Part shown: piece after piece, positions 54,601 to 60,600 of the stretch
Numbering within the stretch: the stretch's first letter is position 1
How the letters are laid out: each line of letters begins with the position of its first letter
Assembly: GCF_044324785.1 (NCBI RefSeq)
Contig: NZ_CP172127.1
Reading direction: 5' to 3' (one strand)
Origin: Escherichia coli
GTDB lineage: Bacteria; Pseudomonadota; Gammaproteobacteria; Enterobacterales; Enterobacteriaceae
Length of the DNA: 64,000 nt
Program-made: the position numbers

Positions 54601-57600
54601 GCATAAAAATCTGTTATTTACATCATAAGATCATCATGTTTATTGCGTGGTTTATAAGTATTGTTATTGCATACTCAAGGCCCTTTAGCTCAGTGGTTAG
54701 AGCAGGCGACTCATAATCGCTTGGTCGCTGGTTCAAGTCCAGCAAGGGCCACCATATCAGCATTCACGTATCAGGAAGAGTTAAGGGTACAAGGGGTACT
54801 CGATGGCGGTCTATATTTCACGACTAACGCCATTTCAAGGAAGAAGTTTGGTGGGTGGTTTCGAATGAGGGCTGGTGTTTTGGTACGTGGCACGCCACTG
54901 CAATGTATTTATCCATCAGTACTCATTCAAAAGTACCTGGAAAAAATGCCCGCTATGCCAAGCGGGCAAATTGCTTACATGTGGAATTAAGTAATTAACG
55001 ATAAAGCCAGAGTATTATCATTTATTATACCCCTTCATTTAATCAGGTTAATTACTCAAATCACTGAACTATTCTCTTTTCGCTCACTTATGCTGAGTGA
55101 GTACCACGACCAATGTATGTAGAACAATGCCGTAGAGTAAGGATGAAATGTCTCTGCCACGCCTAAACATCTACTACTGACTAGAACCGCCGTCGAATGC
55201 AGAAGAGTCTTGTGAGCGTTACAGGAGTCTGGCTTTGCTCATTAATCAACGCTATTTAGATATAAATTTCTAACACTCGAAAAACGATTTTCACTAATAA
55301 ATTATAACGGGTGGTTTTTATCATACAGCGAAATAACCTTTTGTTTATTAAATTTAACATTCCTGTGCGAAATTAATTAAAAGTACCATGTATAGCATAT
55401 GAAGCTGTTAATGCCAGCAATTGTCTCAAATGAGCGATTTTTTATAGTTACAAACAATAATAACATTAAAAATAGCCATGTAGACATTAACTGAGGAATA
55501 GACAATGTTAGTTAGTAAAAGTAATGGACATAACGTTAATACAGTTTTTGGTAGTGTAAGTTGTAATGAAAACAATTCTACCAACACCATGGAGCTAGTA
55601 GCTCATAGTATTATAAAATTAATTTGTCAGGAAGCTGCCTCAGGGACGTATCGCGGTGCTCTTGAAACTTTACAAAAAATGATGTCTGAATGTATATATC
55701 ATGAAGGCAACGCCTTTGTCATTATGGGATCTGGAGAGCAATTAAAACGTATTAAATATGATGTTGATGAAAATAACTTAAAAGTATTCAACGTATACTT
55801 TGATAATAATGAAGAGTTAGTTACTGATGGTGAGCCTGACGTAGTATGTTTAAGCAAGCAGGTCTGGGAAGATCTTCTCATTAAACTAAAGCTGGAGAAC
55901 AAAGAAAATGCGGTTTCTGAAACTGACCTGTCATCGAATAAAAATAATGTTGATCAGTTTATTGAATGCGCTAAGAGAACTGAACAGACCCTATTAGAAA
56001 ATATAATAAAAAGTGATTTTCATGTTGATTCATTTAAGCCTGGTAGTACGCGTAGTGTTATTTTAGAAACGCAACCCAATGTCTGTATGGAATCACGTAA
56101 TTCATATGACAACCAAATAGATAAGGTTTCACCTGTAACTAAAAACTCTCAGCAAGTTAAAGGCCACTATGGAGATAAATTGAAAGAAATGCAGATGTTC
56201 CTTAACCAGATGGGCAATGCACTTCAACAGGCTCCATCTTTGTCAGAGTCAAAGGAACACACCATAGATATTCAAAAAATAACGGATGCCTTTGTGAAGG
56301 AGTTCCGGGGGGTATTAATTGATAAAAATGGAAATTCTTCAGAACGTTTATTCAATTTTTATGAGTGCTGCTATAAATTTTTACCAAGAGCGCAGCCTCA
56401 AGATAAAATCGAAAGCTATAATTCAGCACTGCAAGCTTTTTCTATCTTTCGTTCATCTACTTTGAATAATAATGATGTGGGGTTTAATTTCAAATTATTT
56501 CCAGAAGTCAAGCTGTCTGAGGAAAATCTTGAAACGGTATTCAAATACAAAAAAGGAAGTTTTGTCCGGGAGATAGCCAGAATTAACATTACTCTACAAA
56601 AAGGAGAGGGTGGTTTATATAATTTGGGTGGGTTGGATTTTAAGGGATGCTTCTTTTCTGGACAGAACTTCCGTAACTATGATATTAAATATGTGAACTG
56701 GAGAACTTCATTGTTTGATGTTGATGCACCGTGTATTTTTAATGTGCCTGATGATAATAAGAGTTATGAGAAATTATTAAAATCTGTCAGCGAAAACGGT
56801 TTAAATGGAGTCTTGTCTGATCGTAATAATAAAATAAAAATAATCACGGGCGTGGCACCATTCGATGATATTTTATTTATGGATGATGACTTTGATGATA
56901 GTTCTTCTGAGGATGATCCCGTTGAGAATAGTCCTGTTGTGAATAGTCCCCTTGTATAAACTTCTAAAAGCAGTTTTCAATGATAAATAAAAGGCTATTT
57001 TTAAAAGAGATAATAACGTAGATTGAAATAATATATATTGTTGACTGATTAAACGGAATTATCCTTCACACTACAACCATTTTGCTGCCACTACCAAAGA
57101 AAAAGGGGCTACGCTTTCACGTAACCCCTTGATTTATTTGGTGAGCTGGCGGTGTCTGAATTGGTGCTGTAATGGGTTGAAATATTTCATCTAATGTCTG
57201 GTTCAACTTTCCTTAGCTGCCTGAAAGTTTTTTTGATATTACCCATCAATAATAGGGTTACGGTGTACCACGCCTGACTGATGAACTGCGTGCTCAGAGT
57301 TACCACGCGCATAACCGTGGCAGCAGACCCGGACAGAACAAACGGCTCAGGACATTATCGGTAGGGGACGTACTGGTAGTATGGAAACTGAACCGACTGG
57401 GGCGCAGTATGCGACATCTTGCCGTGCTGTTGGAGGAGCTGTGAGAACGTGGTATTAACTTTCGTGCTCTGACTCTACCAATATTTGCCCAACAATGGGG
57501 GGACGAAAGCTGTAAAAGTAAAACAATCTGCAATCTCAATGTTATTGTGTGATTTTTATGTGAGCAGAAGATATTCATCAGAAACGATTATGTAAATCAT

Positions 57601-60600
57601 TTTATTTTTCCGACGGCTTCAATGTCGAAAGAAAAGAATACGCCCGTATTTCCTGAATAGATTGACTTTTTTATCCAACCACACTTCAGCGCACTGCGTT
57701 TAAAAAATTCCTCTTTCTTATGCGGAATATCATCATTTCATCATGATGTCTTTGATGAGCGGTGAACACAATACACTTGCGCTGTCTCTTCAGGATGAAT
57801 CCCCTGGTCTGGTGCCTGTGGGCTGATGTTGCAGCAAAGCTAAGGTCGCTTAAACGCTACTCAGTATTCACTTTTCAGAGGATGAAATTTATGAACAGGA
57901 CCAGTCCCTATTATTTTCGCCGCTCAGTACTTTCCTTATTGATATCTGCCTTGATATATGCTCCGCCCGGGATGGCGGCCTTTACTTCTAATGTTATTGG
58001 TGTGGTAAACGATGAGACTGTAGATGGTGTCCAAAAAGTAGATGAACGAGGTACAACAAATAACACTCATATTATCAACCATGGCCGGCAGGAGGTCCAT
58101 GGTGGGATATCTAATAGTAGTATTATTGAAACTGGTGGCGAGCAACTAGTATCAATCCATGCCGATATTAACGGGCAAGCTAATAATACAACCATTAATG
58201 GAGGCAGACAGTCAATTGAGTACGGAGGAATTTCTACTGGCACGATAATCGAAAGTGGCAATCAATATGTTTATAAAGGCGGTACCAGCAATGGCACGAT
58301 GATTAAGGCCGGAAGTTCACTCGTAGAGGGGGGGACTGCGAATGGAACAATCATTGATGGTGGCAGCCAACGAGTAACAACTCAGGGGCATGTTGATGGT
58401 ACAACGATAAATAAGTCCGGTTATCAGGACATCACGCAAGGAAGTCTGGCGACGAACACAACCATAAATGGTGGTCGACAGTATGTTGAACAGAGCACAG
58501 TAGAAACAACCACCATTAAAAATGGCGGTGAGCAAAGAGTATATGAAAGCCATGCGCTGGACACGACGATTGAAGGTGGAACTCAGTCTCTGGATAGTAA
58601 GTCAACGGCAAAAAATACTCAGATCTATTCTGGTGGTACGCAAATTGTTGATTACACTAGCACCTCGGATGTTATTGAAATTTATTCCGGTGGCGTGCTT
58701 GATGTTAGAGGTGGTATGGCAACAAATGTTACTCAGCACGATGGAGCCGCTTTGAAAGTAACGACTTACGATTTGACGGTGAGCGGTACGAATAGTGAAG
58801 GGACATTCTCCATCCACAATAACGTGGCAGACAATGTGTTGCTGGAAAACGGTGGTCATTTAGACGTATATGGTTCGGCAACCAGGACGATAATTAAAGA
58901 TAAAGGAACAATGTCAGTTTTAACGAATGCTAAAGCTGATGCGACCCGAATAGATAACGGCGGCGTTATGGATGTTGCCGGAAACGCGACAAATACCATA
59001 ATTAATGGTGGCACACAGAATATTAATAATCATGGTATTGCCACGGGCACCAATATCAACAGCGGAACACAAAATATCAAGAGCGGCGGGAAAGCTGACA
59101 CGACAATTATATCCTCCGGGAGCCGGCAGGTTGTTGAGAAAGACGGTACGGCAATTGGCAGCAATATTAGCGCCGGAGGCTCGCTGATTGTCTATACCGG
59201 CGGTATTGCACATGGGGTTAACCAGGAGACGGGCAGCGCTTTAGTTGCCAACACGGGCGCAGGGACTGATATCGAAGGATACAACAAGCTCTCTCACTTC
59301 ACTATTACCGGAGGGGAGGCTAATTATGTTGTGCTGGAAAATACCGGCGAACTGACGGTAGTGGCTAAAACCTCGGCGAAAAATACCACCGTTGATGCTG
59401 GCGGTAAGCTAATCGTCCAGAAGGAGGCCAAAACAGATACCACCAGACTTAACAATGGCGGCATTCTGGAGGTTCAGGACGGTGGTGAGGCTAAGCATGT
59501 TGAGCAACAATCCGGCGGCGCATTAATTGCTTCCACGACTTCCGGAACACTTATCGAAGGAACCAACAGTTATGGCAATGCTTTCTACATCAGGAATTCA
59601 GAAGCTAAAAATGTTGTGCTGGAAAACGCTGGCTCATTAACAGTCGTTACTGGTTCCCGGGCAGTTGATACGATTATTAATGCCAACGGCAAAATGGATG
59701 TTTATGGAAAAGATGTTGGCACTGTACTCAATAGTGCGGGCACCCAAACAATATATACCAGTGCCACTTCTGATAAAGCAAATATCAAAGGTGGCAAGCA
59801 AACGGTATATGGTTTAGCCACTGAGGCAAATATCGAAAGTGGTGAACAAATTGTTGATGGTGGGTCAACAGACAAAACGCACATCAATGGCGGCACGCAA
59901 ACCGTTCAGAATTATGGTAAGGCGATCAATACCGATATCGTCTCTGGCCTACAACAAATTATGGCAAACGGGACAGCGGAAGGTTCCATTATTAATGGCG
60001 GTTCACAGGTAGTTAATGAGGGCGGTCTGGCTGAAAACTCGGTACTTAATGACGGCGGCACACTCGATGTGCGGGAGAAAGGCAGCGCTACGGGGATACA
60101 GCAGAGTAGCCAGGGCGCGTTGGTGGCAACCACCAGGGCGACGCGGGTCACAGGGACACGCGCTGATGGCATTGCGTTCAGCATCGAGCAGGATGCGGCG
60201 AACAATATCCTGCTGGCAAATGGCGGCGTGTTAACCGTGGAGTCAGACACCACTTCCGCCAAAACACAGGTCAATGCGGGCGGACGGGAGATCGTCAAAA
60301 CAAAAGCCACTGCGACTGGCACGATGCTTACCGGCGGTGAACAAATCGTCGAGGGTATGGCGAATGAGACAACGATTAACGACGGCGGAATACAAACAGT
60401 TTCGGCTAACGGTGAGGCAGTAAAAACAACGATTAATGAAGGCGGTACGCTGACAGTCAACGATAATGGCAAAGCGACTGATATCATCCAGAACAGCGGT
60501 GCCGCTCTCCAGACGAGCACGGCTAACGGTATTGAAATCAGCGGTACTCACCAGTACGGCACCTTTTCCATTGCCGGAAATTTAGCGACTAATGTGCTGC

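What the first reader, a model, noticed from the sequence alone, without database searches (positions are those of the whole stretch)
57271..57890. Decayed Pin/Hin-type invertase immediately upstream of the autotransporter gene
A clearly recognisable but truncated and stop-interrupted serine invertase core lies about 400 bp upstream of the autotransporter start. Invertases of this family drive phase-variable promoter or tail-fibre switches, so this may be the relic of an ancestral invertible switch or of a phage segment controlling an adjacent surface protein.
Basis: partly seen in the sequence, partly recalled or inferred. Interest (0 to 1): 0.35.

Follow-up and report, generated by a model that had tools for sequence, protein, structure and literature searches.

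The report
Dead phage invertase fragment, pinH
This is the already catalogued E. coli pseudogene pinH, a dead middle third of a phage tail-fibre DNA invertase stranded next to the YpjA/EhaD adhesin gene, and nothing indicates it ever switched that gene.

Summary
Window 57316-57474, possibly to 57505, encodes residues 39-91 of a Gin/Pin/Hin-type serine invertase (Pfam Resolvase E 2.5e-11; Gin structure E 4e-16). It has an in-frame TGA at 57442-57444 and lies about 390-420 bp upstream of the ypjA/ehaD start. It is the orthologue of K-12 pseudogene pinH (b2648). It occurs, always as a fragment in every copy I inspected, in about 3000 of 5426 complete E. coli genomes.

The switch idea fails three tests.
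- The catalytic N-terminus and the DNA-binding C-terminus are both missing.
- No hix/gix/pix-like site or half-site is present, although the same searches recover both sites in an intact prophage control.
- An artificially inverted intergenic query matches 0 of 5426 genomes, against 3001 collinear matches.

The two main pinH alleles differ with dN/dS of about 1.45, which indicates neutral decay.

Context points to a prophage origin. A 10.7-kb low-GC block next to ssrA holds the relic. About 165 bp to its left lies an orphan Fels-2/SopEPhi-type attP arm with a 14-nt ssrA 3' end. Fels-2-like phages give the closest intact invertases (82% aa). The invertase homology ends within 6-37 bp of a 350-bp ypjA leader module that also sits upstream of ycgI, where there is no invertase.

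Verdict: ordinary, already known, low interest.

The parts
57316..57474 (+). Confident invertase relic (pinH orthologue). It covers aa 39-91 of a ~183-aa Gin/Pin-type serine invertase and lacks both the catalytic Ser10 region and the E-helix/HTH domain.
   Evidence: K-12 pinH b2648 at the orthologous place
57442..57444 (+). In-frame TGA stop at the position of a conserved Arg (ELRERG). The K-12 allele has TGC (Cys) here.
57475..57505 (+). Probable frameshifted tail of the relic. A 4-nt deletion follows 'LT', and homology runs to the PMG motif (aa ~101).
   Evidence: DNA alignment, (weak; inferred)
57077..57140 (-). Orphan Fels-2/SopEPhi-type attP arm, containing an intrinsic terminator at 57130-57103 on the minus strand.
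   Evidence: 94.8-97.4% identity to the attP region of Fels-2, SopEPhi, RE2010, Cartapus and 500465-1 and to P2-like prophage ends at ssrA; terminator scan
57141..57154 (-). Displaced 14-nt copy of the ssrA 3' end (TGGT-GAGCTGGCGG, with a 1-nt deletion).
   Evidence: alignment with the window's own ssrA and with a prophage-occupied ssrA
57511..57861 (+). ypjA 5' leader/promoter module. It is 89% identical to the region upstream of the ycgI autotransporter pseudogene near minE, and its left edge abuts the end of the invertase homology.
57891..62459 (+). ypjA/ehaD AIDA-type autotransporter adhesin (1522 aa, intact here).
62620..62982 (-). Functional ssrA (tmRNA), the integration target that defines the island region.
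51731..62468 (.). A 10.7-kb low-GC accessory block (amylase-like gene, ileY, ypjCB, attP arm, pinH, ypjA). In the B2 strain ZH063 it is replaced by 333 bp.

Best explanation
The feature is pinH, a non-functional fragment of a phage tail-fibre DNA invertase (Din family: Gin/Cin/Pin/Hin). It retains only about 53-63 of ~183 codons and does nothing today.

In an intact phage this enzyme flips a ~2-kb tail-fibre segment between two 26-bp inverted sites that lie just upstream of its own gene. Here three things have been deleted: the 5' third of the gene with the catalytic serine, the crossover sites, and the whole DNA-binding half. What remains carries a stop codon and a frameshift and is drifting neutrally.

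The relic lies in a graveyard of ssrA-targeting mobile elements. I infer that a Fels-2-like (P2-family) prophage once supplied the 3' end and terminator of ssrA. That end was later displaced and survives as the orphan arm at 57077-57154. The invertase piece is what is left of the same or a tandem myovirus prophage. Its 3' breakpoint was created when the ypjA cassette, which carries its own ~380-bp leader, became joined to it. Proximity to the adhesin gene is therefore a rearrangement scar and not a regulatory design.

Shown: homology, the lesions, absence of sites, absence of inversion, neutral substitution pattern, the attP arm, and the paralogous leader module. Inferred: the order of events and the identity of the donor phage.
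For: Homology and extent. Orthology to K-12 pseudogene pinH b2648, and PGAP's annotation 'recombinase family protein, incomplete, missing N- and C-terminus'.

Population: 3001 of 5426 complete genomes carry the region collinearly, and every copy inspected is a fragment. All close protein matches among 5.8 billion clusters are 52-116-aa fragments from E. coli.

No recombination sites. The positive control found a 24-nt inverted pair flanking 1.87 kb, ending 58 bp upstream of an intact invertase, by the same methods. No inversion polymorphism: 0 of 5426 genomes.

Neutral decay: dN/dS is 1.45 between the window and K-12 alleles (15 nonsynonymous, 4 synonymous changes) against 0.20 for relic versus intact invertase.

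Phage origin: best intact matches are Fels-2 and SEN8 at 82% aa, with other P2-like, P1 and D6 invertases at 78% and 75-81% at DNA level. P2-like prophages sitting at ssrA in strains GPEC1366 and A41 carry an intact 183-aa invertase beside tail-fibre genes and end in the same arm sequence. The attP-arm identity is 94.8-97.4%, and the Fels-2 record labels that stretch attP. Fels-2 and SopEPhi are listed as ssrA integrators with P2-type integrases in PMC10107115, Table 1.

Cassette boundary: the ypjA leader 57511-57861 recurs upstream of ycgI without an invertase. Accessory status: low GC and absence of the whole block from a B2 strain.
Against: The order of the pieces (arm to the left of the invertase) is the reverse of that in a single integrated Fels-2-like prophage. 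A tandem lysogen or a second element plus several deletions is therefore needed, and none of this is directly observed.

The 82% versus 78% aa difference over 50 residues is too small to assign the donor phage family. DNA identity to every sampled phage is at most 81%.

The 160 bp between the arm and the relic (57155-57315) matches nothing in the phage collection.

The 333 bp found in B2 strains could mean either loss or never-gain of the block.

No orthologous locus outside E. coli could be examined, because the genome-contig scan returned only two contaminant contigs.
Confidence: 0.9

Rival explanations
1. Relic of an ancestral invertible promoter switch. In this view a once-intact invertase flipped a promoter-bearing segment to phase-vary the YpjA/EhaD adhesin, and the switch later froze in the present orientation.
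For: An invertase fragment lies about 400 bp from a surface-adhesin gene, in the same orientation. Invertase-driven phase variation of surface proteins exists elsewhere, for example Hin/fljBA (established knowledge).
Against: No crossover sites or half-sites are present, and the positive control works. No genome among 5426 shows the opposite orientation. The ypjA leader is a discrete module found without an invertase at ycgI, and the invertase homology ends at its edge. The nearest intact relatives all sit beside phage tail-fibre genes and not beside adhesins.
Confidence: 0.03
2. The relic is inert as a gene but has been co-opted as a cis element. For example, it could serve as AT-rich/H-NS or Fis-binding DNA (the remnant of the recombinational enhancer inside invertase genes) that contributes to silencing or activating ypjA.
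For: The relic is retained next to ypjA in essentially all of the ~3000 genomes that have ypjA. The region has low GC.
Against: Substitutions between alleles look neutral, with dN/dS 1.45 and about 10% synonymous divergence. IS3 insertion into the relic is tolerated in one strain. No promoter-like site was found on the + strand in 56.9-58.0 kb. The paralogous ycgI leader begins only at 57511, so the conserved regulatory unit excludes the relic. Linkage alone explains co-retention.
Confidence: 0.05
3. The relic comes from a Mu-like or e14/P1-like element, or from an unrelated island that carried ypjA, and not from a Fels-2-like prophage. The neighbouring attP arm would then belong to a different, unrelated integration event.
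For: P1, P7, D6 and other invertases are only 2 residues in 50 worse than Fels-2. The best DNA matches are to 42-kb phages (vB_EcoM-606R2 and others) at 80.9%. Metagenome contigs join a Mu-like gin N-terminus to the pinH tail. In strain A41 a different prophage follows the same arm.
Against: The arm and the relic are only about 165 bp apart. Fels-2-like phages are the one family shown here to carry both features. The Mu-like hybrid is absent from all 5426 complete genomes, so it may be an assembly chimera.
Confidence: 0.35

Closest known systems
E. coli K-12 pseudogene pinH (b2648)
   Same: The chromosomal position is the same: between ypjB/ypjC (here the fused ypjCB) and ypjA, on the ileY side of ssrA. 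The same invertase segment is retained, and the two are collinear at 92.7% identity over 941 bp.
   Different: This is a different allele. The window has TGA where K-12 has TGC, and it keeps more consensus residues (VVWKL, MRHL, against K-12's LVCKL, MWHL). No CP4-57 prophage separates ypjA from ssrA here.
Tail-fibre DNA invertases of Fels-2-like (P2-family) prophages integrated at ssrA
   Same: Identity is 82% at the amino-acid level over the 50-residue core. These phages also carry the attP arm found at 57077-57152 and target the same ssrA locus.
   Different: Those genes are intact (183 aa). They lie next to an invertible tail-fibre segment with 24-26-bp inverted sites and sit about 8 kb upstream of the arm. 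Here only aa 39-91/101 remain, no sites remain, and the arm lies on the other side.
Gin (Mu), Cin (P1), Pin (e14) and Hin (Salmonella): the Din family of serine invertases
   Same: The catalytic-domain core is clearly homologous (Gin 4m6f, E 4e-16; P1 Cin at 78% aa).
   Different: The relic has no catalytic serine, no E-helix, no HTH domain, no crossover sites and no invertible segment. It cannot function as a recombinase.
Hin/fljBA-type invertible promoter switches
   Same: The only shared feature is an invertase-derived sequence lying near a surface-protein gene.
   Different: No bounded invertible element exists and only one orientation is seen in 5426 genomes. The adjacent promoter region is a cassette shared with ycgI.

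Membership tests
Serine DNA invertase (Din family, Resolvase N-terminal domain PF00239), as a functional member | Sequence homology to the resolvase/invertase catalytic domain | tested here: met
   Pfam E 2.5e-11, above the gathering score; Gin structures E 4e-16
Serine DNA invertase (Din family, Resolvase N-terminal domain PF00239), as a functional member | N-terminal catalytic serine (Ser9/10 in the YxRVSTxxQ motif) | tested here: not met
   Homology begins at aa 39. No frame or strand in 57100-57900 encodes the motif.
Serine DNA invertase (Din family, Resolvase N-terminal domain PF00239), as a functional member | E-helix and C-terminal helix-turn-helix DNA-binding domain | tested here: not met
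   Homology ends at aa 91-101. Downstream DNA is the ypjA/ycgI leader module.
Serine DNA invertase (Din family, Resolvase N-terminal domain PF00239), as a functional member | Uninterrupted reading frame | tested here: not met
   TGA at 57442-57444 and a 4-nt deletion after 57474
Invertible DNA switch (Hin/Gin type) | Two ~26-bp crossover sites in inverted orientation flanking the segment | tested here: not met
   There are 0 matches to the palindromic consensus or to the pix-like site with up to 3 mismatches. No half-site lies within 56.9-58.1 kb. The control locus L010 gives a 24-nt pair at 92% complementarity.
Invertible DNA switch (Hin/Gin type) | Both orientations observed among genomes or cells | tested here: not met
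   The synthetic inverted query matches 0 of 5426 genomes at 80% coverage or more (maximum 63%), against 3001 collinear matches. Within-culture heterogeneity cannot be tested with these tools.
Invertible DNA switch (Hin/Gin type) | Fis-bound recombinational enhancer in the 5' part of the invertase gene | not tested
   The 5' ~115 nt of the gene are absent, and no reliable Fis motif test is available here.
K-12 pseudogene pinH (b2648) orthologue | Same flanking genes and collinear sequence | tested here: met
   Order ileY-ypjCB-relic-ypjA-ssrA; 92.7% identity to K-12 over 941 bp; K-12 pinH maps to about window 57315-57553
Remnant of an ssrA-integrated Fels-2-like prophage | attP-derived arm with an ssrA 3' fragment adjacent to the relic | tested here: met
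   57077-57152 is 94.8-97.4% identical to the attP of Fels-2, SopEPhi and related phages
Remnant of an ssrA-integrated Fels-2-like prophage | Relic closest to Fels-2-family invertases, with further phage genes in the flanks | tested here: inconclusive
   Fels-2 scores 82% aa against 78% for P1 and other P2-like invertases. DNA identity is at most 81%. Nothing else in 57155-57315 is phage-like. The order of arm and invertase is permuted relative to a single prophage.

The most novel reading that the evidence does not exclude
The whole pinH-ypjA stretch may be the fossil of a tandem array of ssrA-targeting prophages. On this reading the YpjA/EhaD adhesin gene arrived, or was captured, as a discrete cassette consisting of the gene plus a ~380-bp leader that is also seen at ycgI. 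Its insertion would be what truncated the invertase. That would make YpjA/EhaD a phage- or island-delivered adhesin and would define the cassette's left boundary to within 6-37 bp.
Probability: 0.35. Interest if true: 0.2.

Novelty: already known. Interest (0 to 1): 0.08.

Why it matters
It matters little. The fragment has been annotated as a pseudogene (pinH) in E. coli K-12 for years, and NCBI's pipeline flags it as a partial recombinase in thousands of genomes. The useful outcome is negative. The tempting idea that it marks a phase-variation switch for the YpjA/EhaD adhesin can be set aside, so nobody needs to look for inversion at this promoter. A minor by-product is a clearer picture of the ssrA-proximal 'graveyard': an unannotated Fels-2-type attP arm and a shared ypjA/ycgI leader cassette. 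These may help people who map island boundaries or study regulation of these cryptic adhesins.

Tried and rejected
1. Palindromic hix/gix consensus, its core, a half-site and a pix-like site were searched across the whole window. Nothing was found at the locus and counts were at chance level.

2. A generic inverted-repeat search of 56.9-58.1 kb gave only 10-23-nt AT-rich pairs at 74-91% complementarity, typical of chance.

3. An Rfam scan of 56.9-58.0 kb gave only sub-threshold hits: sraA at 24.8 bits against a threshold of 56, and BjrC68 at 21.5 bits against 39, the latter lying on the terminator hairpin.

4. A scan of species-representative genomes with YpjA, meant to find the orthologous locus outside E. 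coli, returned only two E. coli-like contaminant contigs in a Collinsella MAG. It was a dead end, so the state in other species remains untested.

5. A 116-aa ORF from metagenome contigs looked like a more intact form at this locus. It has an intact invertase N-terminus with the catalytic serine, and an invertible tail-fibre segment lies upstream. No complete genome contains that junction (0 of 5426), so I treat it as a probable assembly chimera or a very rare recombinant. It would still lack the C-terminal half.

6. Strain CAVP773, where the match starts inside the relic, has only an IS3 insertion.

7. ycgV upstream was tested for the shared leader module and lacks it.

8. The PGAP 39-aa 'hypothetical protein' in the leader has lost its start codon in this window (ATG to ATT), so it is unlikely to be a real gene.

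9. A genomic-SELEX RpoS peak near ypjA reported in PMC5493296 maps, in that paper's older coordinate system, upstream of ypjC and not to pinH.

10. Williams 2003 ('Traffic at the tmRNA gene') could not be retrieved.
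Full report
**Locus and organism.** The right end of the window is the E. coli interval between glaH and smpB. It holds, in order:
- an amylase-like gene;
- ileY at 54679-54754 (called tRNA-Met CAU by ARAGORN);
- an intact ypjCB at 55505-56959 (DUF5507 plus DUF5508);
- the feature under study;
- ypjA/ehaD at 57891-62459 (AIDA repeats, pertactin and autotransporter beta-domain);
- ssrA at 62620-62982 on the minus strand;
- smpB at 63197-63679 on the minus strand.

The closest complete genome, strain N3, is 99.0% identical over 56960-57900 and has the same gene order.

**Checking the observation.** One reading frame of the + strand gives ...SRPGQNKRLRTLSVGDVLVVWKLNRLGRSMRHLAVLLEEL*ERGINFRALT.
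- This matches Pfam Resolvase (PF00239) at E 2.5e-11, above the gathering score, but covers only profile positions 48-100 of 145.
- It matches residues 38-94 of the Gin invertase crystal structures at E 4e-16.
- A local alignment against an intact 183-aa prophage invertase puts the confident homology at 57316-57474, which is aa 39-91 at 70% identity. The other five frames of 57100-57900 give only noise.
- DNA alignment suggests the homology continues, after a 4-nt deletion, to about 57505.
- The stop is TGA at 57442-57444.

The observation therefore holds: a truncated, stop-interrupted invertase core lies about 400 bp upstream of the autotransporter start. Only about 160-190 bp of the stated 620-bp span is invertase-derived.

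**It is a known pseudogene.** In K-12 MG1655 the orthologous position, between ypjB/ypjC and ypjA, is annotated as pseudogene pinH, b2648. It aligns collinearly with the window. PGAP annotates it in other strains as 'recombinase family protein, incomplete, missing N-terminus and C-terminus'. The region is present collinearly in 3001 of 5426 complete E. coli genomes. A spread sample down the ranking shows the same fragment annotation throughout. The one partial match examined was an IS3 insertion. A search of 5.8 billion protein clusters returned only 52-116-aa E. coli fragments as close relatives.

**Testing the switch hypothesis.**
- *Missing domains.* The relic lacks the catalytic serine region, the E-helix and the DNA-binding domain, so it cannot act.
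- *No crossover sites.* The 26-bp palindromic consensus, its core, the conserved half-site and a pix-like site give either no match or chance-level counts, and none lies at 56.9-58.1 kb. The consensus sequences were recalled from memory. I therefore ran a positive control on a Mu-like prophage contig with an intact invertase. The same half-site pattern and the repeat finder recovered a 24-nt inverted pair (92% complementary) flanking a 1.87-kb tail-fibre segment and ending 58 bp upstream of the invertase start.
- *No inversion in the population.* I built a query in which 57506-57880 is reverse-complemented between its native flanks. No genome of 5426 covers 80% or more of it. The maximum is 63%, which is the two flanks only. 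The native arrangement gives 3001 collinear matches.
- *Neutral divergence.* The two main alleles (window type and K-12 type) differ by 15 nonsynonymous and 4 synonymous changes in the relic, giving dN/dS of 1.45. Relic versus intact invertase gives 0.20. Selection therefore stopped before the alleles diverged.

**Where the relic came from.**
- *Invertase relatives.* By tblastn the closest intact phage invertases are Fels-2 and SEN8 (82% over 50 aa). A P2-like phage, P1/P7 Cin, D6 and others score 78%. DNA identity is 75-81%.
- *A neighbouring attP arm.* Window 57077-57152 is 94.8-97.4% identical to the attP region of Fels-2, SopEPhi, RE2010, Cartapus and 500465-1. The Fels-2 record labels that stretch attP.
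- *What the arm contains.* It holds a strong minus-strand terminator at 57130-57103, followed by a 14-nt copy of the ssrA 3' end with one base deleted.
- *The same arm in living prophages.* In strains GPEC1366 and 13P477T the arm joins a P2-like prophage to the intact ssrA. In strain A41 the arm is followed by a second prophage, a tandem array like the one inferred here. The GPEC1366 and A41 prophages carry an intact recombinase (183 aa in A41) immediately upstream of the tail-sheath gene, about 8 kb upstream of the arm; in A41 it lies directly beside tail-fibre genes.
- *Literature.* Fels-2 and SopEPhi are listed as ssrA integrators with P2-type integrases in PMC10107115, Table 1.
- *What is inferred.* The order arm-then-invertase is permuted relative to a single prophage. 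A tandem lysogen or a second element plus deletions must be assumed. That part is inference.

**The junction with the adhesin gene.** Window 57511-57861 is 89% identical to the DNA upstream of the ycgI autotransporter pseudogene next to minE, in nearly all E. coli. No invertase lies there, and ycgV does not share the module. The module starts 6-37 bp after the invertase homology ends. The 3' truncation of the invertase therefore coincides with the edge of a duplicated 'leader plus autotransporter' cassette. This is what a rearrangement scar would look like, and it is not what a regulatory arrangement would predict.

**Wider context.** The whole 51731-62468 block (10.7 kb) has 29-45% GC across 52-58 kb. 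In the B2 strain ZH063 it is replaced by 333 bp, with glaH and the ssrA-proximal spacer conserved on either side. The relic thus sits in accessory DNA at a classic integration hot spot.

**A lead that did not hold.** Eleven short-read metagenome contigs encode a 116-aa ORF that joins an intact Mu-like gin N-terminus to the pinH tail. Its 54 N-terminal residues are near-identical (2 differences) to the intact A41 invertase N-terminus. An invertible tail-fibre segment lies upstream. No complete genome contains this junction. It is therefore probably an assembly chimera or a rare recombinant. Even if real, it lacks the C-terminal half.

**Limits.** Other species could not be surveyed, within-culture heterogeneity cannot be tested here, and the donor phage family is not resolved.

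**Verdict.** The fragment is real, it is the known pseudogene pinH, and it is a decaying prophage invertase remnant. The evidence argues consistently against a past or present switch for ypjA. Novelty: already known. Interest: low.

Noticed in passing
window 57077-57154: An orphan Fels-2/SopEPhi-type attP arm lies here, with an intrinsic terminator and a 14-nt ssrA 3' end carrying a 1-nt deletion. The K-12 RefSeq record lists no feature at the orthologous place between pinH and ypjB.
   Followed up: yes
window 57511-57861, compared with K-12 L013:5216-5565: The ypjA 5' region is duplicated upstream of the ycgI pseudogene beside minE, at 89% identity overall. By eye, the ~170 bp nearest the genes (57690-57860) look far better conserved than the rest. 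This may reflect a shared regulatory leader.
   Followed up: partly
window 55505-56959: ypjCB is an intact 484-aa ORF here (DUF5507 plus DUF5508), whereas K-12 has it split into ypjC and ypjB. It is very AT-rich (~34% GC) and its function is unknown.
   Followed up: partly
window 56960-57900: The pinH-ypjA upstream region is only 92.7% identical to K-12, while ssrA next door is 100% identical. About 105 genomes carry the window-type haplotype (95% identity or more) and about 2900 the K-12 type (90-95%). This looks like two deep haplotypes.
   Followed up: no
window 62466-62495: A hairpin with T-runs on both strands, resembling a bidirectional terminator, lies directly after the ypjA stop codon. 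Its sequence is also present next to ssrA in a B2 strain that lacks ypjA.
   Followed up: no
L010:10001-10351 and L009:413-763 (metagenome contigs): A 116-aa ORF fuses an intact Mu-like gin N-terminus to the pinH tail and the ypjA leader. It was seen in 11 metagenome/Logan contigs but in none of 5426 complete genomes. It is either a recurrent assembly chimera or a rare recombinant lineage.
   Followed up: partly
L011, L012 (Collinsella sp. MAG Map_57_008): Two short contigs of a Collinsella MAG encode YpjA at 76-95% identity. This is almost certainly E. coli contamination of the bin.
   Followed up: no
L007:6809-7971 (strain CAVP773): An IS3 element is inserted into the pinH relic, and an anti-phage dCTP deaminase island lies between ypjA and ssrA. 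This illustrates ongoing turnover at the locus.
   Followed up: no
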